Virus record (IMG/VR): IMGVR_UViG_2675903413_000007
Span: 1 to 16,008 of that record
DNA: 16,008 nucleotides
Strand: one strand, 5' to 3'
DNA from: a virus
Taxonomy: Duplodnaviria; Heunggongvirae; Uroviricota; Caudoviricetes
Shown in pieces: positions 1,532 to 10,679 of the stretch; position 1 is the stretch's first letter; every line of letters begins with the position of its first letter. Under the pieces are notes generated by a model. It saw only the letters and a list, made by a program, of their open reading frames with translations, had not been told where the DNA came from and ran no database searches. Both the position numbers and the translations under genes were made by a program.

Positions 1532-1741
1532 TTAATTTGAATACAATGCAATTCTCGAGGACTGAAGTTTCTCGCAATTAAAATTTATCAGTTTTACTTT
1601 CTGCTCTCTGGAAACGCCTGCTTCTTTTTTACCTGAGAGCATTTTTTCGCATTCTGATTTCGTTAGTTTAGATTTTGAATATCTTGTCCAGTTAGTAGGA
1701 GTGCCACCTTCCTTTTCAATAGTGGCGGTAATTTTATACAT
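1532..1741 (-). CDS. ydaC: Rac prophage small protein YdaC-like (DUF1187), 69 aa
   Basis: ORF MYKITATIEKEGGTPTNWTRYSKSKLTKSECEKMLSGKK... in the conserved Rac order between xisR and ralR. Start taken at the internal ATG (1741) that overlaps the ralR stop by 8 nt; the track ORF extends to 1813. Confidence 0.65.
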   Translation of the reverse strand: MYKITATIEKEGGTPTNWTRYSKSKLTKSECEKMLSGKKEAGVSREQKVKLINFNCEKLQSSRIALYSN

Positions 1742-1928
1742 GAACACCTCCATTATTATTTCCAGTGGTTCGTTTATTCCATCTTTCGAGTGCTTCTTTT
1801 TCACTTCCACCATAACCGGTTCGGGATTCGCATCCGTTACACTTCGCTCGGTAATATCCTGAAATGGCTTTCACCGTTACTGATGGACAACCACAAAATG
1901 GACATGGTTTAACATTGTCATATCTCAT
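1734..1928 (-). CDS. ralR: Restriction alleviation protein Lar/RalR, 64 aa
   Basis: Translation MRYDNVKPCPFCGCPSVTVKAISGYYRAKCNGCESRTGYGGSEKEALERWNKRTTGNNNGGVHV matches Rac RalR from memory, including the CxxC...CxxC pattern. Start taken at the third Met of the track ORF. Confidence 0.88.
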   Translation of the reverse strand: MRYDNVKPCPFCGCPSVTVKAISGYYRAKCNGCESRTGYGGSEKEALERWNKRTTGNNNGGVHV

Positions 1929-1984: not shown

Positions 1985-2794
1985 TTATTCCTCTGAATTA
2001 TCGATTACACTGTATTCCCCGGTTAATACAGAGGAATCTGCAGGATCGATTGTCAGTGGTTCCTTTTCATCCATTGATACTGCACGCTGGATCTCAATTG
2101 ATACGGGCAGATATTTGAACAGGCGACGAATAGCCGTTTTCTTTGCCATTTCTTCCCAGTGAGTTACCCACGGCCCGTTATTACCAGCTTTACTCAGGCT
2201 GCGCACCAGCTCAATCTGTTTGCGCGTCATAACTTCAAACTGAGTACCTCCGTCTTTCAGTCTTGCGACAGCATAGACGTGGGTAACCGGGGCATCTTCG
2301 TTTTCTCCCGGGCGGTGTATTAACTTTTCATCAAGGCCAAATTCGAAGCTAAACTCGTCACCTTCACGGACAACACGGGCTGACAGGCTGGCGATTTGAC
2401 CAGAACGGCGAGCCAGATCAATCATGCCGCGATAGCCAATGATTAGCTGAACGTTCTTTTTACCGCTCTTTTCGTTTTTATTACCAAAAGGCAGTAAATA
2501 TGCATGACCGAGGGCGCTACCTGGCTCAAGTCCGAGCTGTGAACACTGTACGATCGCACTGACAAAACTCATAGTGTCACAGTTTCCTAACGCCGGAACT
2601 TTACGAATTTCTGTGGTGGCGATACGGATCATACGTTCAGCCGTCATATGGCGTGGAAGAGCTGCTGCCAGTTGCTCTTTCATTGATGGCTGGTTAATAA
2701 AACTAATCACGTCGCTATTTTTAACTGCTGCTGGTGCACGGTTTCCCTGAGTTTTTTGCAGATCGGCTTTTGCGATTGGTGGTTGCTTAGTCAT
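1985..2794 (-). CDS. recT: Recombinase RecT (single-strand annealing protein), 269 aa
   Basis: Translation from [21 protein letters not shown]... to ...[10 protein letters not shown] matches E. coli Rac RecT over its full length as recalled. Start at 2794 overlaps the upstream recE stop, as in K-12. Confidence 0.95.
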
Positions 2795-3479
2795 TTGCAT
2801 ATTCCTTAGCCCAGCGGGGCAGTGATAATGTCTTAATAGCTGGCCATTCATCGGTATTCAGGCAGTCAGACAGGGTTCGCAGATTGCGGTGATATTCCTG
2901 TTGACCTGCCAGTTTTGCTTCTTCGCCCATCATGAAAATTTCAACCGGATAACGTCCGCATTCAATAGTTGTGCTGGCAACCAGAAAAACGAAAGTTGGC
3001 TGCACTCCAAACTGTGCTTCATAACCGTCACTGTAGAATGCATCCTGAACGTGATAGCGGTAGTCGTAATAAGCGGTTTTGAATCGTTGAATATCCGCCG
3101 TAGTTTTCACGTCCATGATCCAGTGAAATTCAGGGATAATTTTGTCCGGACGGCACCGACACAAAATTCCTGTTTCAGGATCTTCCCAGTAAATTGATGA
3201 TTCAGCGTGTCCGGCGCTTTCAACAAGCCATTGCCCCAGCGGCAAAGCCATAACGCTTTGATACATGAGTTCAATTTTCCGGCCTTCTTCCGCAGTGATA
3301 ACCGTTTTTCCTGTGCTTGCGCATTCCATCAGAAACGCTTTCTCTTCTTCTTTTCCGGCGTTTGTACGGCGGTTAAATTCAGGTGCTACGATAAAGCGGT
3401 TACTGAATTCTTCCGGTTCAAGTACGGGAAGATGCTCCAGAGTGGCTTCGCTCTTTATTTTTTGTAACTGTCCTCGATA
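2787..3479 (-). pseudogene. recE: 5'-truncated recE (exonuclease VIII) remnant: C-terminal ~230 codons only, no start codon
   Basis: The minus-strand frame is open from the stop at 3512-3510 down to 2787 and translates to ...[54 protein letters not shown]...[15 protein letters not shown], which matches the RecE C-terminal nuclease domain. Full RecE is ~866 aa. The homology and GC-rich composition stop near 3480, where the AT-rich island begins. The only in-frame Met is at 3329. Confidence 0.85.
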
Positions 3480-3484
3480 ATTTT

Positions 3485-4264
3485 TTGTACATTGATGGTG
3501 ATAGCCGCATTACGAATGATGAGAACAAGCCGTTGGGTATTAAGGCTTTGATCGAGCGACTTTGCGCAGAGAATGGTCAAGAAACAGATCATGAGGATTT
3601 CGATTCATGGTACTGCTATGATGCTTTGAAAGCGCGTTTGCAACATATGCGTTGGTTTCAATTTTATGATGCTGTTGAGATTATCGGAGATCTATTAAGA
3701 AAAAGAGATGTAGAAAGAGGCCATACTTGGGGTAAGAAGGCATTAGAAGACATTACTTTTACATCATATCGTCAGAAATTGAACGAGTTATTCGCATCTC
3801 GAAATATTGACTGGAAAATGAATTCTGCTGGTAGGTTAGAAACACCACTACCAAATGAATTAGAACAAAAAATCGATGAAACTAACAACTTATTGCAAGA
3901 CCAGTTTGAACCTGCAAGGAGGCACTATGTGAAAGCCCGGGCTTTTGCATTAGGTGCGCATAAGGATCCAGAAAATTCCATAAAAGAATCAATAAGTGCA
4001 ATAGAAAGCATGTGTCGGACTTATTATCCTTCAGCCTCAACCTTGGGCGATGTATTAAAACTGATGAGAAAAGAAAACACTATCTCACCTATGCTTTTAA
4101 CGGTGATAGAGAAATTTTACGCTTATACAAATGCAGAGCCAGCAGTAAGACATGGTAGCAACAAGGTTTCTTCTGTCTTGGAATACGATGCTGAATTCGT
4201 GTTGCATATATCAGCAGCATTTATTAGAACAATAATACAAAGAAAAGCTGTTTTGGATAACTAA
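3485..4264 (+). CDS. Hypothetical protein, 259 aa as drawn; start uncertain (TTG, no RBS); possible Abi/HEPN-like C-terminal module
   Basis: Long AT-rich ORF beginning exactly at the recE junction. The first codon is TTG with no Shine-Dalgarno, and the frame is open upstream to 3407 inside the recE remnant, so the native N-terminus may be lost. Predicted helical protein; the C-terminal segment ...[31 protein letters not shown]... loosely resembles abortive-infection C-terminal (HEPN-type) modules. The similarity is weak and unverified. Confidence 0.5.
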
Positions 4265-4350
4265 GTCAGACTTACAGCCAACTGACTGTCTCTTATTATT
4301 CAAAACATAATAATGTTAGGTCCGCTTATCGCACATCAGGGACAACCATA

Positions 4351-4381
4351 CTCAAATCTCCCACATTGCAGGAGATTTGAG
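4351..4381. repeat. Perfect 11-bp inverted repeat (ctcaaatctcc / ggagatttgag) with 9-nt spacer between convergent island genes
   Basis: Read directly from the sequence. No flanking T- or A-tract, so it is not a canonical intrinsic terminator; it could be an attenuator or a protein-binding palindrome. Confidence 0.4.
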
Positions 4382-4504
4382 TGTGAACACGTCACCGTGG
4401 AACAAAGACTGTATCATCGGTCAAAAAAGACCTGGTTATCTAGCAAAAACTTTTAACATACCAACAAACTTAATTTATTTAAATGCTATTAATACAACTA
4501 ATGT

Positions 4505-5731
4505 TTAAAATATATATTTTATATCAACCCAATTTTTAGCATTATTGTCAACTAAAGTAACGCTATGTCCATGACTTGAATTTATAGCATCGATTACTGA
4601 TTGTGATGGGTGTCCATGTGAATGACCATCCGACTGAGCTATAAACAAAACATTATCAAAATCCGCAATTATTTTTTGATTGAAATTTAATTCCGAACCA
4701 TGATGAGGTAATGTCATCACCCTTACCGTTTTAATCACTTTTGAATAGAATTCAGCCCATTTATTATAATACAATGATGTATTAAGCTTTGAGTCACCTG
4801 TTAATAAAACAGATCTAATTCCTTTATCTCTATCAAAGAGAAAATGTCGCTCAACCCGACTATTTCTAAAACTAAACCACTCACGAGAAGGCTCATTAAC
4901 AATTTTCATCTCAGCTTCTTGATTATTAATAATCAAGAGATTGATTGATATTACATTATGATCGCCAGCAAGTTTTAAATAACACTCGCGTAATTTCTTT
5001 CTTTCCCCCGTGCTAGTTAATATTTTAAGCATTTTTTTCTTACTTAACTCAGTAAAACCATTTTCTATTAACTGCTGACTGAAAATTTCAATTTTCTTAC
5101 GTGAACGGGGCGGTATCCAAGAAATAAATGACATTAGTGTATCAGTTTTGTTTTCCCCAATCCTTTTAACCAACCAACGGTTACATTCAACATCTCCTTT
5201 GGAGTCAGATATTTTCATTGGTAAGCTTACAGCGCTACCCTTAATGTTTTCACTATTAAATATAGGAGGGTCAAAATTATCATCAATATCACTGGGGTAA
5301 AGCAAAGATATATCTGCCTCAGGCAACCTTGATTTTATCCATTTGACAGGATCAATGAGAAATTCCATAAAAAGACCTGACGTAGAATTAGAGCATAGCT
5401 CCGATGCAATTAAGTAATAGCTATCATGGATATCTAGGTATGGTAATACAACCTTGCGTATTTTGTTATCTACAAGCTGACATAAATGGTCAAATCCATT
5501 TATATGGTCTGAATCCAAATGAGAGATGTATACCACATCAATATATTTCTCATCAATATTAAAGAGAGATTTAGCCACATCCATCTCCCTACGCAACGCA
5601 TTTAATTGGTCACTTCCGCAGTCATACACATAACTGTAAAGCAAACTACCATCCCTTCCCCTCAGTCCGCCTAAACTAAATCCACCCTGGCCAACGGGAA
5701 ACAATCTTTTATGAAATACTTCTCCGCTCAT
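4505..5731 (-). CDS. Standalone ComEC/Rec2-type metallo-beta-lactamase-fold hydrolase (predicted nuclease), 408 aa
   Basis: ATG at 5731 is preceded by AAGAAGGA about 7 nt upstream. Ordered MBL motifs are visible: FPVGQGGFSL near the N-terminus, YDCGSD, ISHLDSDHINGF (HxDxDH variant, as in ComEC ISHADQDH), LPHHGSELN (ComEC HHGS motif) and SDGHSHGHPS (C-terminal GHP). A ~250-aa insertion lies between motif 2 and the HHGS motif. There are no transmembrane competence-channel segments. Very AT-rich. Confidence 0.75.
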   Translation of the reverse strand: MSGEVFHKRLFPVGQGGFSLGGLRGRDGSLLYSYVYDCGSDQLNALRREMDVAKSLFNIDEKYIDVVYISHLDSDHINGFDHLCQLVDNKIRKVVLPYLDIHDSYYLIASELCSNSTSGLFMEFLIDPVKWIKSRLPEADISLLYPSDIDDNFDPPIFNSENIKGSAVSLPMKISDSKGDVECNRWLVKRIGENKTDTLMSFISWIPPRSRKKIEIFSQQLIENGFTELSKKKMLKILTSTGERKKLRECYLKLAGDHNVISINLLIINNQEAEMKIVNEPSREWFSFRNSRVERHFLFDRDKGIRSVLLTGDSKLNTSLYYNKWAEFYSKVIKTVRVMTLPHHGSELNFNQKIIADFDNVLFIAQSDGHSHGHPSQSVIDAINSSHGHSVTLVDNNAKNWVDIKYIF

Positions 5732-6445
5732 ATATCCTTCTTACACCCTAACGTGATCATAAAATTGTCTTAAAGTTAAGTTTAAAGCTAAAAAGTCACA
5801 GCTCATTCCAACTCGTGAGCAATAGGAATGTATATTCAATCAGTTAGAGGATCAACCCGATTTTCTCTAATGAGATTTCGCAACGCAGTACGAACAGCAG
5901 CTACTTCTGCCATCTCATTAACAACCACACTGGACTACAATCCCCTAAGTTCTACAGACTGTAACCATATCCTCTTCACAGAAATAATCTGATTAATGCT
6001 GAAGGTCATCTTTCTCGACGCGAATGTATGACATAACAACCTCAGTTAATTATCTTTCGATAGAAAAATACCTTCACAAAAGGTTTAAGCAACCCATCAC
6101 AAGACAACACGCTAAGCTTGCCTTGTAAGCGTCCTGCTTAACCGAACAGTTCGCTTTCAGAGGATCTCCGGAGAACAGCTCCGATGCCTTATAAGGCCAA
6201 TGCTCGCTCCTCGCTCACTGCGGACCTAAGGTTTGGTCAGCTTGTTCGCACTCTGCCAAAAGCGGGAGTTACTCCCATTCGGTGTTAATCAATGTAGAGC
6301 AGATCAATCAACGACAAAGAAAATGAGAGGCATATCACTACTCATATGAAAATTATTGTAGTAAAGTGAGCCGTAAGTTCATCATTTATAAATCATATAG
6401 CATATATGTTATATCAATTTTAATTTAAATGGCAGAATAATTACC

Positions 6446-7150
6446 ATGGAAAAAATTAAAGCTCCTTGTCCATATTGTAAAGGTGAAAAAAATTGCCACA
6501 TAATAGGCCATAAAAAAAGAGAATGGAGTGAGGATGATGGGGGCAACTATTTTTGGGCTGAAAGTGAATACAAATTATTAGAGTGTATGGGGTGCGACGG
6601 AATATTTACATATATTAAATCCCGTCACAGTGAAGATTACGACATTGAAAGAGATGAGTCAGGCTATGATTGTATGGTATATAACTATCATATATCAACA
6701 TATCCCACTCAAGAGCAAGAAGAGATTAGACCAACTTGGTTTGGTGAGATATTAAACAAAGATCGTCAGCTGTATGTAATAATGAACGAAATGTACATCG
6801 CATTTCAAAATAAATCATTCATTTTAGCGGCGATTGGACTTAGAACTATTTTTGACAGAACAGTTGAGGTTCTAAATATTCATCCAGGATATACATTAGG
6901 CCAGAAGGTTGACATTCTTAAAGAGGAAGGTTTTATTGGGGAAACAGAAAGGAGCCAACTTAAAATTGTAACCGAAGCTGGCAACTCAGCTGCACACAGG
7001 ACATGGGCACCGAACGAAACTGAATTTAAATCGCTTTTGGTAATTATAGAAAATTTTGTAATGCGAACAATACTAAAAAATGAGGATATATTTAAGATTA
7101 CAGAAAAATTACCTGCGAAATATCCAAGACCTCCCAAAAAGCAAGAATAA
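6446..7150 (+). CDS. Zn-ribbon + DUF4145-like (HEPN-superfamily) protein, 234 aa
   Basis: The N-terminus has CPYC...(35 aa)...CMGC, a CxxC-CxxC zinc ribbon. The C-terminal ~100 aa contain AAIGLRTIFDRTVEVL and the motif TEAGNSAAHRTW, which matches the conserved GNxAAH signature of DUF4145 domains as I recall it. AT-rich; divergent from the MBL gene. Confidence 0.7.
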   Translation: MEKIKAPCPYCKGEKNCHIIGHKKREWSEDDGGNYFWAESEYKLLECMGCDGIFTYIKSRHSEDYDIERDESGYDCMVYNYHISTYPTQEQEEIRPTWFGEILNKDRQLYVIMNEMYIAFQNKSFILAAIGLRTIFDRTVEVLNIHPGYTLGQKVDILKEEGFIGETERSQLKIVTEAGNSAAHRTWAPNETEFKSLLVIIENFVMRTILKNEDIFKITEKLPAKYPRPPKKQE

Positions 7151-7559
7151 TGTACGTAAGTGTAAATAGAGCTAAGAGATTATATATTGACTCTGGTTAT
7201 CTCTATTAGCACATGCTTTTTGTAATGCCTTAACTGATTATTTAAACTCCTGTCAGCTTTTCGCTCAAAGCGGACTAAAGTGTTGGCTTGTGACTGACTT
7301 AGCGCATTTAAGGAAGTGGTGGTGGTGACGGGGTGTTGTGTCCCATTTCCACAGAATAAATCAGAGAAACTATAGCGGCTGTAATGGCAATCTATGGTCT
7401 TGCTATTGCTCTTATGGATCACCTTTCTGATTGATTTCATATTGGCGAGGTAACGGGAGTTAAGTAGAATAGCTGCGGGTGCTTGAGGCTGTCTGCCTCG
7501 GGCATGAACACCAAAGGCAGATAGAGAAAAGCCCCAGTTAACATTACGCGTCCGGCAAG

Positions 7560-7640
7560 ACGCTTAACATTAATCTGAGGCCACATCTATGCTTTGCATA
7601 CGTAGATTAGCCTCTTACCGACCAAAAGGTCAAGGAGAAG
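7560..7640 (-). ncRNA. sok: Expected Sok-type antisense RNA opposite the mok/hok leader (position approximate)
   Basis: Inferred from hok-family locus architecture only; no promoter or terminator for it was pinned down in the sequence. Confidence 0.25.
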
Positions 7641-7837
7641 CAGGCTATGAAGCAGCAAAAGGCGATGTTAATCACCCTGATCGTCATCTGTTTAACCGTT
7701 ATAGTGACGGTACTGGTAACGAGGAAAGACCTCTGCGAGGTACGAATCCGAACCGACCAGACGGAGGTCGCTGTCTTCACAGCTTACGAACTTGGGGAGT
7801 AAGAGGACCAGCGGGGAGAAATCCCCGCAACCTCTGA
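7589..7837 (+). CDS. mok: Mok-type overlapping reading frame (modulator of killing) of the hok locus
   Basis: An 82-codon ORF in a different frame that starts upstream of hok and fully overlaps it, which is the canonical mok arrangement. Confidence 0.5.
   Translation: MLCIRRLASYRPKGQGEAGYEAAKGDVNHPDRHLFNRYSDGTGNEERPLRGTNPNRPDGGRCLHSLRTWGVRGPAGRNPRNL
7647..7802 (+). CDS. hokD: Hok-family type I toxin (HokD/RelF-like membrane peptide), 51 aa
   Basis: ATG at 7647 with AAGGAGA about 10 nt upstream. Translation MKQQKAMLITLIVICLTVIVTVLVTRKDLCEVRIRTDQTEVAVFTAYELGE is near-identical to E. coli HokD/RelF and Gef/HokC as recalled. It has a single transmembrane helix and the conserved Cys. Confidence 0.9.
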   Translation: MKQQKAMLITLIVICLTVIVTVLVTRKDLCEVRIRTDQTEVAVFTAYELGE

Positions 7838-8265
7838 TGTATTATGCATCCTCAACGCAGCCACAGTTAACCTGATTGGCGGGTTTATTTCATCTGTAAA
7901 TATTTTTATAAAAATAATGCCCACGCACAGCATAAAACAAAAAGTATTACAGATAAAAAAGGAACGTAATGTGCAGATTTGTTGTTTTCCATATTTACTC
8001 ACCTTAATATGATTAATCCTGATAGGGTTGTTATTTCAGCGGTTTTCAAATGAGATATTATGGTGATCTGACAAATTTGCATAGCATTAAAATTTAATTT
8101 GTTTAACCACTTTTAATAATAAGCGTTGTTTGCATCCCAGCAATCTGTTGTTTGGTTTTTATTCCATTAAGGTGGGGGCTTTACACTGGAACCAGTTTAT
8201 TTATACTTTATACGTCAGCCTGAACAACTGGCATCTGCTGCACTGCGCCATCGAGAGATTGAGAA

Positions 8266-8865
8266 ATGGCGCATATACAACTGGTCAAACAAACTTCTTC
8301 TGGTTTACTTCTCCCGGCGACGCCGGAGAGTTGCGATTTTCTGCATCAAATCAAAATAGGTGAGTGGATACACGCAGACTTTAAGCGTGTGCGTAACTAC
8401 GCATTCCACAAGCGTTTTTTCAAACTCCTGCAACTGGGATTCGATTACTGGACTCCGGTCGGTGGGGCGATCACGCCTCGCGAACGAGAACTGCTGTCTG
8501 GTTTCGTTGATTACCTGTGCGAATCAGTTGGTCGGGAACACACGCCAGCCCTGAGTGATGCCGCAGAGCAATACCTTAACACCGTTGCGACTCGTAGAAC
8601 CCGGGATACGGCGTTGCTAAAGTCGTTTGAGGCTTTCCGCGAGTGGGTAACCATTCAGGCCGGATTTTACACCGAGCATATTTATCCGGACGGTAGCCGT
8701 GGGCGTCGGGCAAAATCCATCGCTTTTGCGAATATGGACGAAGTCGAGTTTCAGCAGGTTTATAAATCTGTACTGAATGTGCTGTGGAACTGGATTCTGT
8801 TCCGTAAATTCTCCTCTCAGGAGGAAGTTGAAAATGTGGCCGCACAACTACTGGAGTTTGCGTAA
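8266..8865 (+). CDS. Conserved lambdoid nin-region protein of unknown function, 199 aa
   Basis: GC-normal ORF whose stop overlaps the next start (TAATG at 8863-8867), i.e. translationally coupled to the YbcO-like gene. I do not recognise a specific family with certainty. Confidence 0.6.
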   Translation: MAHIQLVKQTSSGLLLPATPESCDFLHQIKIGEWIHADFKRVRNYAFHKRFFKLLQLGFDYWTPVGGAITPRERELLSGFVDYLCESVGREHTPALSDAAEQYLNTVATRRTRDTALLKSFEAFREWVTIQAGFYTEHIYPDGSRGRRAKSIAFANMDEVEFQQVYKSVLNVLWNWILFRKFSSQEEVENVAAQLLEFA

Positions 8866-10147: not shown

Positions 10148-10679
10148 GGGCTGGTTTATTGTATGCCAAATGATTATTAAAAAGGTTGTGTTAATAACAA
10201 AATCCGAAATAATATGCCTGCATATTTTTATCTTGCTTATATTCTGCATATTGTGCATAGCAGGCTCATCCCTGCAATCAAAACTGTATGATGAGTATTT
10301 TTTGTTTTCCTTTTTTCCAGTCATCTGATGATGACCTGCTTCTTTTTAATCCGGATCGACATCAGTTTTTTAAGATAATTCCTGCGAGTTATATGCATAA
10401 ATACCACAAACTCCGCATTTTATGTGGTTGGGAGTTGCCGGGCGCGCAGTGAGTTTGCTAAGAAAACTCCTGCATGGTGAATCCCCCTGTGCGGTGGGGT
10501 GATACCATTAACCTTTTCTGTCGCCGACAGGTATCACGAACATTTTGTTCACCGGGAGGCACCCGGCACCATGCACTTCAATAGATTCTCTCCACATTAT
10601 GGATATTCTTTCAGAATATCCCACGCAGACTTTGTGTAAATGTTAACAAATGTGCGTTTTATTTGATCTGATTCGCTGT

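What the first reader, a model, noticed from the sequence alone, without database searches (positions are those of the whole stretch)
7560..7840. hok/mok type I toxin locus at the island-prophage boundary
A HokD/RelF-like 51-aa toxin with an overlapping mok frame lies immediately right of the AT-rich island. Hok/sok loci act as post-segregational killing modules and have been reported to exclude phage T4, so this may be part of the same defence neighbourhood or may stabilise the cargo. Whether a functional sok antisense RNA and the hok mRNA fold-back elements are intact cannot be judged by eye.
Basis: partly seen in the sequence, partly recalled or inferred. Interest (0 to 1): 0.4.

Follow-up and report, generated by a model that had tools for sequence, protein, structure and literature searches.

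The report
Intact hok/mok/sok toxin-antitoxin locus
This is an ordinary, apparently intact copy of the well-known hok/mok/sok RNA-controlled toxin-antitoxin module that lambdoid (Rac-like) E. coli prophages carry as a fixed backbone gene, sitting next to, but not belonging to, the variable gene island on its left.

Summary
A 51-aa Hok toxin (7647-7802, Pfam HOK_GEF 74 bits) is overlapped by a mok frame (7589-7837). The full module is wider than reported, about 7442-7895.

- the hok promoter and the 5' tac box;
- the ucb box that sequesters the mok ribosome-binding site;
- the 3' fbi box;
- an antisense Sok gene (7597 to ~7521, minus strand) with promoter and terminator hairpin.

The full-length fold closes by 5'-3' pairing. 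Both mutually exclusive pairings (tac/fbi, tac/ucb) are conserved with compensatory changes across 30 hok mRNAs. One G-G mismatch in tac/fbi is a shared allele (139 of 5,426 genomes), not a private lesion.

Hok is prophage backbone, not cargo. In all ten DUF977-containing prophages examined the order is DUF977-[unrelated variable genes]-hok-nin/Q, and the identical Hok protein sits beside different cargo.

The defence reading is weak. Published surveys find hok enriched in prophages but not near defence systems, and T4 exclusion was not reproduced in 2026.

The closest characterised relative is hokW-sokW of phage 933W/Sp5. Verdict: already known, low interest.

The parts
7442..7470 (+). hok/mok promoter: TTGGCG (-35), 17-nt spacer, TAGAAT (-10)
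   Evidence: Consensus scan, 9 of 12 matches. It places +1 about 7 nt downstream at G7477, the same -10 to +1 geometry as R1 (TATGAT, 6 nt, then GGCGC). It lies right of the point (~7370) where homology with differently loaded prophages begins.
7477..7488 (+). tac (translational activator) box GGGUGCUUGAGG at the inferred 5' end of hok mRNA
   Evidence: Position 1 of the Rfam model. It pairs with fbi in the full-length MFE fold (probability ~1.0) and with ucb in the truncated fold. Both helices are conserved with compensatory changes. In 30-45-nt nascent transcripts nt 7479-7505 form a metastable hairpin of -18.8 kcal/mol.
7489..7524 (+). conserved 5' hairpin of the hok leader
   Evidence: Helix 2: 94% of cells paired, 2 pairs with changes on both sides.
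7529..7535 (+). ucb / anti-SD box (AAGCCCC)
   Evidence: It pairs with the mok SD in the full-length fold and with tac in the truncated fold. It is the least variable segment among prophage lineages (mean pairwise difference 0.012). The tac/ucb helix is 98.5% paired, with a UA to CG change in the hokB lineage.
7537..7575 (+). long stem-loop of the leader; on the minus strand the same bases form the Sok terminator hairpin. It contains an 18-nt extension relative to hokC.
   Evidence: Alignment with K-12 hokC and the folds.
7577..7580 (+). mok Shine-Dalgarno GAGG, 8 nt before the mok ATG
   Evidence: Read from the sequence. Sequestered by 7532-7535 in the full-length MFE fold. Probability unpaired is 0.02/0.47/0.01/0.02 in the full-length RNA and 0.51/0.85/0.05/0.11 in the truncated RNA.
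7589..7837 (+). mok reading frame (82 codons, +1 relative to hok). It is longer than the usual ~68 codons because the normal TGA stop is changed to TGG.
   Evidence: ORF list. Comparison with the phage Rac 442/2 mok annotation, which ends 7 nt before the hok stop, and the alignment. Translation of mok past the hok start is dispensable in R1 (PMC9841398).
7521..7597 (-). predicted Sok antisense RNA (~71-77 nt): single-stranded 5' tail complementary to the mok SD/start, long hairpin, U-rich tail
   Evidence: The 5' end aligns with the annotated 5' ends of K-12 sokC and sokB. It also aligns with 933W sokW, which starts at mokW start +8 and is 71 nt long. Fold -31.8 kcal/mol, z = -4.9 against shuffles.
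7604..7633 (-). sok promoter: TTGACC (7633..7628), 18-nt spacer, TAATCT (7609..7604)
   Evidence: Aligned with the sokC, sokB and R1 sok promoter regions, which all share CTCCTTG...GGTAAGAGGC followed by a -10 hexamer. The hexamer is TANNNT-type in sokB and R1, and ACTCTA in sokC. It scores 8 of 12, below the scan threshold. By my own hexamer count R1's promoter also scores 8 of 12.
7634..7637 (+). hok Shine-Dalgarno GGAG, 9 nt before the hok ATG, held in a local hairpin
   Evidence: Read from the sequence. Paired with 7613-7616 in all folds.
7647..7802 (+). hok toxin gene, 51 aa, hydrophobic stretch at residues 7-25, Cys15 and Cys30
   Evidence: Pfam HOK_GEF 74.4 bits. 90% identical to K-12 HokD and 84% to HokW. 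RefSeq protein WP_021554378.1, 'Hok/Gef family protein'.
7785..7788 (+). UACG motif at Tyr47 codon: candidate TadA A-to-I editing site (Tyr to Cys)
   Evidence: Motif located. Editing of the equivalent codon is reported for hokC/D/E in K-12 (PMC12214031). Not tested here.
7811..7828 (+). 3' stem-loop GCGGGGA-GAAA-UCCCCGC, the presumed protective end of the processed (truncated) mRNA
   Evidence: Folds. Helix 19: 91% paired, 3 pairs with changes on both sides. The role is known from R1, where substitutions in this stem cause loss of function (PMC9841398).
7850..7862 (+). fbi (fold-back inhibitory) box CCUCAACGCAGCC. G7860 gives a G-G mismatch opposite G7479.
   Evidence: Pairs with tac. Relatives have C at this position. 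The mismatch costs ~4 kcal/mol without loss of pairing. The allele is exact in 139 of 5,426 genomes.
7869..7895 (+). weak terminator-like hairpin followed by a T-rich run
   Evidence: Scan. The RM9513-type relatives have a stronger CCCGCTTCGGCGGG-T6 terminator here.

Best explanation
This is a complete hok/mok/sok type I toxin-antitoxin module of the hokD/hokW lineage. It belongs to the conserved backbone of a Rac-like lambdoid prophage.

Proposed mechanism, step by step:
1. The promoter at 7442-7470 makes a stable hok mRNA of ~390-415 nt starting at about 7477.
2. While the transcript is nascent, the 5' tac box is held in a metastable hairpin.
3. In the full-length RNA, tac (7477-7488) pairs with the 3' fbi box (7850-7862), and the ucb box (7529-7535) sequesters the mok ribosome-binding site (7577-7580). 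The RNA can then neither be translated nor bind Sok.
4. Slow 3' trimming back to the 7811-7828 hairpin removes fbi. Tac re-pairs with ucb, the mok site opens, and ribosomes translating mok unmask hok.
5. The short-lived antisense Sok RNA (7597 to ~7521) pairs with the mok start region and triggers RNase III cleavage. Hok is therefore made only when Sok synthesis stops.
6. Hok inserts in the inner membrane and kills or arrests the cell.

What is shown and what is inferred: the sequence elements, the folds, their conservation and the synteny are shown here in silico. Transcription, processing, Sok instability and toxicity are inferred from R1 hok/sok and from hokW-sokW.

Most likely role: ancestrally a phage function that hastens killing and lysis on induction, as shown for hokW. 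In this prophage the repressor and early region are deleted, so the module most likely persists as a selfish retention (addiction) module.
For: Identity:
- Pfam HOK_GEF 74.4 bits.
- Rfam leader model 105 bits, against 110-118 bits for K-12 hokC, K-12 hokB and 933W hokW.
- 89.5% DNA identity to the annotated mokW/hokW/sokW of 933W, and 92.6% to the annotated mok/hok of phage Rac 442/2.

Elements:
- hok promoter found by scan.
- sok promoter and Sok 5' end align with annotated sokC, sokB and sokW.
- Sok fold z = -4.9. Full-length mRNA fold z = -7.4.

Switch:
- The unconstrained MFE of the full-length RNA pairs 7477-7487 with 7851-7862 and 7532-7535 with the mok SD. The truncated RNA pairs 7477-7484 with 7529-7535.
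- The same closed full-length state is recovered for R1, RM9513 and 933W.
- The metastable 5' hairpin is present.

Covariation on 30 mRNAs of four lineages:
- 84.6% of cells are paired, against ~40% for slid controls, and 34 pairs show changes on both sides.
- tac/fbi is 95% paired and tac/ucb 98.5% paired, each with UA to CG swaps.

The toxin is plausibly active:
- V22 and D37 occur in other intact alleles, and the C-terminus is naturally variable.
- 42 of 45 diverse Hok homologs were toxic, and alanine substitutions of conserved residues did not abolish toxicity.

Backbone status:
- The DUF977-[variable]-hok-nin/Q order holds in all ten DUF977-containing prophages examined. An eleventh locus, L046, is a remnant truncated immediately left of hok.
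- The same Hok protein occurs with different cargo.

Function of the closest relative:
- hokW-sokW was experimentally shown to be a type I TA that speeds killing and doubles Sp5 phage release after induction (PMC8621323).
Against: - Nothing here shows expression, processing or toxicity.
- The tac/fbi helix carries a G-G mismatch (G7479/G7860) that relatives lack.
- The usual mok stop is lost, and the terminator is weaker than in the RM9513 type.
- Five of six codon differences from the lineage consensus are non-synonymous. That could mean relaxed constraint.
- The clean tac/ucb switch in the truncated MFE fold is not strong evidence, because the same protocol fails to give the known open form for R1 itself.
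- The sok promoter is below the threshold of the consensus scan.
- The locus is a recombinant: an RM9513-type leader joined to an E62-type coding and 3' part. The compatibility of the two halves is inferred only from the shared tac box.
- The induction-linked role cannot operate here, because racR and the early region are deleted.
Confidence: 0.85

Rival explanations
1. Inactive relic. The locus looks complete but is silenced or decaying, like four of the five K-12 hok loci. Hok would then never be made, or would be non-toxic.
For: - Most K-12 chromosomal hok loci are reported inactivated by IS elements or rearrangement (PMC12214031). K-12 hokD lacks the whole leader, and K-12 hokC has IS186 in its 3' UTR.
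- The window allele has an fbi mismatch, a lost mok stop and 5 non-synonymous against 1 synonymous codon changes.
- The surrounding prophage is defective.
Against: - There is no IS, frameshift, stop or missing element. Every box is present and folds as in the active references.
- The fbi variant is a shared allele in 139 genomes, and pairing probability stays at ~1.
- The substituted residues occur in other alleles.
- Hok toxicity is robust to substitution.
- mok extension is expected to be neutral.
Confidence: 0.1
2. Anti-phage (abortive infection) component of the adjacent defence island. Host transcription shut-off by an infecting phage depletes Sok and releases Hok, and the locus was acquired with, or co-functions with, the cargo on its left.
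For: - The neighbours hit candidate defence models: PDC-S32, and an MBL-fold protein with a LmuA/Avs1a-like C-terminus.
- Other Rac relatives carry an anti-phage dGTPase or a DUF4435 + AAA ATPase pair (PARIS-like by domain content, from my own recall) in the same slot.
- Pecota and Wood 1996 reported partial T4 exclusion by R1 hok/sok (cited).
Against: - hok stays fixed while the cargo changes, so it was not acquired with the island.
- Some cargoes are not annotated as defence genes (QueH, Ea22-like, small hypotheticals).
- Genome-wide, hok is not enriched within 20 kb of defence systems: 12% against 9.4% expected.
- T4 protection by hok/Sok was not reproduced in MG1655 or BLR with two plasmids and two T4 stocks (PMC13047441).
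- There is no PADLOC model hit for Hok.
Confidence: 0.1
3. Phage lysis-timing accessory that is still operating here. As shown for hokW-sokW, Sok disappears on prophage induction and Hok accelerates host killing and phage release.
For: - hokW-sokW (84% protein identity, 89.5% DNA identity) does this in Sp5.
- The conserved position of hok between the replication and nin/Q modules in many lambdoid prophages suggests a phage-beneficial function.
Against: - This Rac copy has lost 8.4 kb, including racR, ydaS/T, kilR and sieB.
- In the window, the lysis genes are followed directly by trkG, and the window shows no structural genes.
- Induction and particle release are therefore not expected. This role fits the family but probably not this copy.
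Confidence: 0.15

Closest known systems
hokW-mokW-sokW of Stx2 phage 933W / Sakai prophage Sp5
   Same: - 89.5% DNA identity over the module, and Hok is 84% identical.
- Same tac, ucb and fbi boxes and the same 18-nt-extended Sok hairpin.
- Sok's 5' end is at mok start +8.
- It is prophage-borne.
- It has been experimentally validated as a toxin with an RNA antitoxin (PMC8621323).
   Different: - In 933W a 1-nt deletion puts mokW in frame with hokW (57-nt offset). Here mok is +1 (58 nt), as in R1.
- The Sok 5'-tail / mok-start segment differs.
- 933W has the canonical fbi (C, not G).
- The Hok C-termini differ.
- The position in the 933W genome is different.
mok/hok of phage Rac (E. coli 442/2, MN652886) and the 'hokD' loci of Rac-like prophages such as RM9513
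   Same: - 92.6-95.6% DNA identity.
- The leader is identical to RM9513 from 7300 to 7673.
- Same synteny: DUF977/lygF-variable ORFs-mok/hok-DUF1367-DUF1364-Q.
- Same +1 mok frame.
   Different: - From ~7674 onwards the window switches to the HKUOPY1/E62-type sequence. That brings V22, D37, L49 and G50, the lost mok stop, the fbi G variant and a weaker terminator.
- It has no rem gene downstream.
hokD (relF) of K-12 Qin prophage
   Same: Hok is 90% identical. The 3' UTR and fbi region are homologous. It is a lambdoid prophage remnant.
   Different: K-12 hokD has no leader, mok or sok, because relBE replaces them. The window locus has all of them.
hok/sok (parB) of plasmid R1
   Same: - Same architecture and the same spacing: mok ATG to hok ATG is 58 nt.
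- The tac/fbi closure and SD/ucb sequestration are recovered by the same folding protocol.
- Covarying helices.
   Different: - Hok is only 41% identical.
- It is plasmid-borne, with a proven post-segregational killing role.
- It has a shorter Sok hairpin and a shorter tac/fbi helix.

Membership tests
Hok/Gef toxin family (Pfam PF01848) | Peptide of about 50 aa matching the HOK_GEF profile above its gathering score | tested here: met
   74.4 bits against a cutoff of 22, covering profile positions 1-42 of 42. The NCBIfam Hok subfamily and HokA equivalog models hit below their cutoffs (43.7 against 73; 40 against 89), so it is not one of those particular subtypes.
Hok/Gef toxin family (Pfam PF01848) | N-terminal hydrophobic membrane helix and the conserved Cys, Thr, Arg and Glu positions | tested here: met
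   Residues 7-25 (MLITLIVICLTVIVTVLVT) are hydrophobic. All 11 columns invariant in the 8-sequence alignment are retained: M1, C15, T17, T25, R26, L29, E31, R35, E40, V41, A42.
Hok/Gef toxin family (Pfam PF01848) | Toxicity to the host when expressed | not testable with these tools
   Inferred only. HokD, HokW and 42 of 45 diverse homologs are toxic.
hok/mok/sok type I TA locus (R1 parB paradigm) | Leader RNA matching the curated covariance model (Rfam RF01794) | tested here: met
   105.2 bits against a cutoff of 59, full model 1-157. The model matches the hok-sense strand, as it also does in K-12 hokC, K-12 hokB and 933W, opposite to their annotated sok genes.
hok/mok/sok type I TA locus (R1 parB paradigm) | Overlapping mok frame with its own SD, starting upstream of hok and reading across the hok start | tested here: met
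   GAGG at 7577-7580 and ATG at 7589. The frame is open to 7837 and the offset to the hok ATG is 58 nt, as in R1.
hok/mok/sok type I TA locus (R1 parB paradigm) | Antisense sok gene: promoter inside the mok/hok start region, transcript complementary to the mok translation-initiation region, terminator hairpin | tested here: met
   TTGACC-18-TAATCT, +1 at about 7597, hairpin plus U-tail. These align with the annotated sokC, sokB and sokW. This is sequence-level only, and the promoter scores 8 of 12, below the scan threshold.
hok/mok/sok type I TA locus (R1 parB paradigm) | 5' tac / 3' fbi long-range pairing that closes the full-length mRNA | tested here: met
   10 base pairs (7477/7478 and 7480-7487 with 7851-7862) with one mismatch and one bulge, at probability ~1. 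The helix is 95% paired across 30 sequences, with a compensatory UA to CG change.
hok/mok/sok type I TA locus (R1 parB paradigm) | ucb sequesters the mok SD in the full-length form; the alternative tac/ucb pairing forms in the processed form | tested here: met
   SD/ucb pairing is in the MFE fold. tac/ucb is 98.5% paired with covariation. The MFE prediction of the processed form is itself unreliable, as the R1 control shows.
hok/mok/sok type I TA locus (R1 parB paradigm) | Differential RNA stability, 3' processing of hok mRNA, RNase III cleavage of the hok-Sok duplex | not testable with these tools
   Needs Northern blots, rifampicin chase and an rnc mutant.
Anti-phage defence systems (PADLOC catalogue) | Match of the protein to a catalogued defence-system model | tested here: not met
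   No PADLOC family matches Hok at E <= 0.01.
Cargo of the adjacent AT-rich island | Co-inheritance with the island genes rather than with the phage backbone | tested here: not met
   The same Hok protein and right flank occur with DUF262 + AAA cargo in E62. hok is present with seven other unrelated cargoes. Homology with those loci starts at ~7370, upstream of the hok promoter.

The most novel reading that the evidence does not exclude
The hok/sok module may be the fixed right-hand anchor of a cargo-exchange slot (DUF977-[slot]-hok) shared by many lambdoid prophages, serving two functions:
- As a conserved homology arm it would mediate cargo swapping by recombination. The window's locus is itself a recombinant, with a breakpoint at 7643-7673.
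- As an addiction module it would penalise deletions that remove it. That would explain why degraded prophages (this one, HKUOPY1 and K-12 Qin) retain hok at or near their deletion edges, and so keep the neighbouring cargo.

The sharp divergence peak in the Sok 5' tail would then reflect selection for non-cross-reacting Sok specificities among co-resident prophages.
Probability: 0.2. Interest if true: 0.4.

Novelty: already known. Interest (0 to 1): 0.15.

Why it matters
There is little new biology. Hok/sok loci in lambdoid prophages are catalogued: the protein is already in RefSeq as a Hok/Gef family protein, and mok/hok/sok are annotated in 933W and phage Rac. One close relative has been characterised experimentally.

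The practical value lies in annotation. The toxin gene next to the island should not be counted as part of the island's defence content. It does, however, mark the right border of a variable cargo slot, which helps delimit the island (right edge at about 7300-7370). The locus is also a natural, intact counterpart of the leaderless K-12 hokD. It carries a natural tac/fbi mismatch allele that could be used to probe how end-pairing strength sets activation kinetics.

Tried and rejected
- Mutational-scan table. I looked for the per-residue loss-of-function table of the R1 Hok scan, to score the five substitutions. No supplementary files are held, so I used natural variation instead.
- MFE of the truncated mRNA. 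I used it as evidence for the open state, but the R1 positive control gives the metastable hairpin rather than the known open form, and 933W and RM9513 give mixed results. I therefore downgraded it and relied on covariation.
- Private-lesion reading of the fbi change. I considered that the G7860 change marks a private inactivating lesion. I rejected this because HKUOPY1 and E62 share it and the exact 45-mer occurs in 139 genomes.
- Alternative fbi register. I considered pairing fbi with GCUGCG just upstream of 7477. I rejected it because those bases lie upstream of the inferred +1.
- The 86-aa minus-strand ORF at 7180-7440, between island and hok, as a possible partner gene. It has no significant family hit: none in Pfam or PADLOC, and only a sub-threshold aminotransferase match in NCBIfam (16.5 bits against a cutoff of 517). 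It also spans the cargo/backbone junction, so it is probably spurious.
- dcb element. I did not map it with confidence.
- A permissive Rfam scan of 7250-8300 found nothing else credible.
- NCBIfam subtype models are below their cutoffs, and PADLOC has no Hok model hit.
- Searches were input errors and gave no result.
Full report
**1. The observation**

The window contains a 51-aa ORF at 7647..7802 and an overlapping 82-aa ORF at 7589..7837, both on the + strand. The 51-aa product is MKQQKAMLITLIVICLTVIVTVLVTRKDLCEVRIRTDQTEVAVFTAYELGE.
- It matches Pfam HOK_GEF at 74.4 bits (cutoff 22).
- It is 90% identical to K-12 HokD/RelF, 84% to HokW of phage 933W and 41% to R1 Hok.
- Rfam RF01794 matches 7477..7652 at 105 bits (cutoff 59). 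K-12 hokC, K-12 hokB and 933W hokW score 118, 110 and 114 bits.
- That model is named 'sok', but in all four loci it matches the hok-sense strand, opposite to the annotated sok genes. It therefore certifies the leader, not the strand of Sok.
- The low-GC block ends at about 7500.

The functional module, however, spans about 7442-7895, wider than the 7560-7840 given.

**2. Anatomy**

- A sigma-70-like promoter (TTGGCG-17-TAGAAT, 7442-7470) places +1 at G7477. This is the -10 to +1 geometry of R1 and also position 1 of the Rfam model.
- The 5' end reads GGGUGCUUGAGG (tac). It is followed by a conserved hairpin (7489-7524), the ucb box AAGCCCC (7529-7535), and a long stem-loop (7537-7575).
- Then come the mok SD GAGG (7577-7580), the mok ATG (7589), the hok SD GGAG (7634-7637) and the hok ATG (7647).
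- The mok-to-hok offset is 58 nt (+1 frame), exactly as in R1.
- Downstream of the hok stop lie a GC hairpin (7811-7828), the box CCUCAACGCAGCC (7850-7862, fbi), and a weak terminator-like hairpin (7869-7895).

On the minus strand, the region upstream of 7597 reads CTCCTTGACC-(18 nt)-TAATCT. It aligns base for base with the promoter regions of the annotated K-12 sokC and sokB and with R1.
- The predicted Sok 5' end (G7597, mok start +8) coincides with the annotated 5' ends of sokC and sokB, and with 933W sokW (71 nt).
- The predicted Sok (7597 to ~7521) has a single-stranded 5' tail complementary to the mok SD/start, a long hairpin and a U-rich tail (-31.8 kcal/mol, z = -4.9).

**3. Are the fold-back elements intact?**

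Full-length form:
- Unconstrained MFE folding of 7477-7866 pairs 7477-7487 with 7851-7862, and pairs 7532-7535 with the mok SD.
- The whole RNA folds far better than shuffles (z = -7.4).
- The same closed state is recovered for R1, RM9513 and 933W.

Nascent form:
- Transcripts of 30-45 nt form the expected metastable tac hairpin.

Processed form:
- Removing the 3' end (any end point from 7790 to 7845) moves the tac partner to 7529-7535.
- I treat this last prediction with caution, because the same protocol does not give the known open form for R1.

The stronger evidence is comparative. I assembled 30 distinct full-length hok mRNAs from the hokD/W, hokC, hokB and R1 lineages.
- The window's own structure is 84.6% paired across them, against about 40% for slid controls. 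34 pairs change on both sides.
- The tac/fbi helix is 95% paired, with UA to CG in six sequences.
- The alternative tac/ucb helix is 98.5% paired, with UA to CG in the hokB lineage.

Both mutually exclusive pairings are thus under selection, and the window conforms to both.

**4. Peculiarities of this allele**

*(a) fbi mismatch.* G7860 replaces the C seen in relatives and creates a G-G mismatch with G7479. It costs about 4 kcal/mol, but the end-pairing probability stays at about 1. HKUOPY1 and E62 share it, and the exact 45-mer is present, single-copy, in 139 of 5,426 complete genomes. It is an established allele.

*(b) Longer Mok.* The Hok changes P49L and E50G (CCT GAG to CTT GGG) turn the usual mok TGA into TGG. 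Mok therefore runs 82 codons, to 7837. [quoted passage not shown]

*(c) Substitutions in Hok.* Relative to the lineage consensus there are five non-synonymous and one synonymous codon changes: A10T, A22V, G37D, P49L, E50G. V22 and D37 occur in other intact alleles, and the C-terminus is naturally variable. Experimentally, 42 of 45 diverse Hok homologs were toxic, and alanine substitutions of conserved residues did not abolish toxicity (bioRxiv 10.1101/2025.08.07.668861).

*(d) A recombinant locus.* It is identical to RM9513 from 7300 to 7673, and identical to E62 from 7643 onwards. The leaders of E62 and HokD-type HKUOPY1 differ from the window's.

*(e) Where divergence concentrates.* Among prophage lineages, divergence peaks in the Sok 5'-tail / mok-start segment (mean pairwise difference 0.32). 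The hok CDS shows 0.05 and the ucb 0.01.

None of these features disrupts a defining element.

**5. Context: backbone or cargo?**

The window is a Rac prophage at ttcA. Its content is intR, xisR, the RalR/RalA pair, recT, a recE fragment, the island, hok, DUF1367-DUF1364-DUF1133, the lysis genes and trkG. Compared with strain GF31 it has a precise 8.4-kb internal deletion with its junction at 3423-3425. The deletion removes most of recE, racC, kilR, sieB, racR, ydaS/T, DUF977, the anti-phage dGTPase, and the first 52 nt of the PDC-S32-like gene.

In all ten DUF977-containing prophages I examined, the order is DUF977-[variable genes]-hok-(rem)-nin/Q module. The slot contents differ:
- dGTPase + PDC-S32-like + MBL-fold + DUF4145 (L001, L002, L049, and, minus the dGTPase removed by the deletion, the window);
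- DUF262 + AAA ATPase + hypothetical (E62);
- DUF4435 + AAA ATPase (T-HYM1);
- five small ORFs (phage Rac 442/2);
- DUF4406 / Ea22-like / DUF7167;
- DUF5677;
- two hypotheticals;
- QueH.

In HKUOPY1 the prophage remnant is truncated immediately left of hok. E62 has the same Hok protein (WP_021554378.1) and the same right flank as the window, but a different cargo. Homology to these loci begins at about 7370, upstream of the hok promoter. Hok therefore belongs to the phage backbone and marks the right edge of a variable slot. It did not arrive with the island.

**6. What it does**

Regulation is inferred to follow the R1 paradigm, as summarised in PMC9841398.

The closest experimentally studied relative is hokW-sokW.
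- HokW is toxic, and SokW neutralises it in an RNase III- and Hfq-dependent way.
- SokW disappears on RecA-dependent induction.
- The locus advances killing by about 40 min and doubles Sp5 phage release (PMC8621323).

That role fits the conserved position of hok in lambdoid prophages. It probably cannot operate in this copy, which lacks the repressor and early region. Here the module most plausibly persists as a self-retaining (addiction) element.

The defence reading is weak for three reasons:
- hok is enriched in prophages (23% against 5% expected) but not near defence systems (12% against 9.4%).
- The 1996 T4-exclusion result was not reproduced with two hosts, two plasmid backbones and two T4 stocks (PMC13047441).
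- Hok matches no PADLOC model.

**7. Comparison and verdict**

Every sequence-level defining feature of the hok/mok/sok family that could be tested was met. RNA stability, processing and toxicity could not be tested.

The locus is a member of the hokD/hokW prophage lineage. It is already represented in RefSeq and in annotated phage records. It is the intact counterpart of the leaderless K-12 hokD.

Novelty: already known. Interest: low. The only mildly interesting leads are three. One is the natural tac/fbi mismatch allele. Another is the intra-locus recombination together with the Sok-tail divergence. The third is the possibility that hok anchors and stabilises a cargo-exchange slot.

Noticed in passing
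window 1557-1735 (+) and ~1734-1928 (-): A second type I toxin-antitoxin pair lies in the same prophage. RalA sRNA scores 225 bits in Rfam, and it overlaps ralR by correspondence with the GF31 annotation.
   Followed up: partly
window 3423-3425: There is a precise 8.4-kb internal deletion relative to strain GF31, with 3-nt overlap at the junction. It fuses a recE fragment (2787-3329, -) to a PDC-S32-like gene lacking its first 52 nt. It removes racC, kilR, sieB, racR, ydaS/T, DUF977 and the anti-phage dGTPase. No complete genome in the collection has this arrangement contiguously.
   Followed up: yes
window ~3423-7370; compare L001, L002, L008, L047, L048, L050-L053: The slot between DUF977 (lygF) and hok holds unrelated cargo in different lambdoid prophages. 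Several cargoes look like defence genes: dGTPase, DUF4435 + AAA ATPase, DUF262 + AAA ATPase. Others do not: QueH, Ea22-like. In the window the cargo is a 5'-truncated PDC-S32-like gene (3485-4264), an MBL-fold protein with a LmuA/Avs1a-like C-terminus (4505-5731, -) and a DUF4145 protein (6446-7150).
   Followed up: partly
window 7643-7673: There is a recombination breakpoint inside the hok locus. The sequence is identical to RM9513 up to 7673 and identical to E62 from 7643 onwards.
   Followed up: yes
window 7592-7609: Among 14 prophage hok loci, divergence peaks in the Sok 5'-tail / mok codons 2-7 segment. Mean pairwise difference there is 0.32, against 0.05 in the hok CDS and 0.01 in ucb. 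This is consistent with diversification of antisense specificity.
   Followed up: partly
L003 (K-12 mokC), L007 (933W mokW), L046, L047, compared with window 7589-7647: A 1-nt indel in the hok SD hairpin changes the mok frame between lineages. mok is in frame with hok (57-nt offset, so Mok is an N-terminally extended Hok) in annotated mokC and mokW. The HKUOPY1 and E62 leaders carry the same deletion. mok is +1 (58 nt) in the window, R1 and Rac 442/2.
   Followed up: partly
window 7785-7788 (also 7741-7744): The UACG motif at Hok Tyr47 is retained. The equivalent codon in K-12 hokC/D/E is reported to be A-to-I edited by TadA, recoding Tyr to Cys (PMC12214031). A second UACG at codon 32 would be synonymous.
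   Followed up: no
window 7900-8265: The AT-rich spacer between hok and DUF1367 has no rem gene. RM9513 and Rac 442/2 carry rem (about 260 nt) here. The spacer is nearly identical in MB06172, HKUOPY1, E62 and T-HYM1. Nothing credible was found there in Rfam.
   Followed up: partly
window 10442-10628 (+): Rfam STnc100 sRNA hit, 86.6 bits against a cutoff of 47. It lies in the region between the Q-like gene and the TolA-like/lysis genes.
   Followed up: no
L009, L030, L036, L037, L038: E. coli-type or R1-type hok loci appear on contigs labelled Veillonella parvula MAG, Xanthomonas pisi, Ferruginibacter MAG, Streptomyces morookaense and Oscillibacter MAG. The contigs are mostly short (431 bp to 5 kb; the Veillonella contig is 22.9 kb). 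They are most likely enterobacterial or plasmid contamination of those assemblies.
   Followed up: no
L047 (E62), equivalent of window 7577-7580: In E62 the mok SD reads GGGG instead of GAGG, and the leader carries several other changes. That copy may be less translatable than the window's.
   Followed up: no
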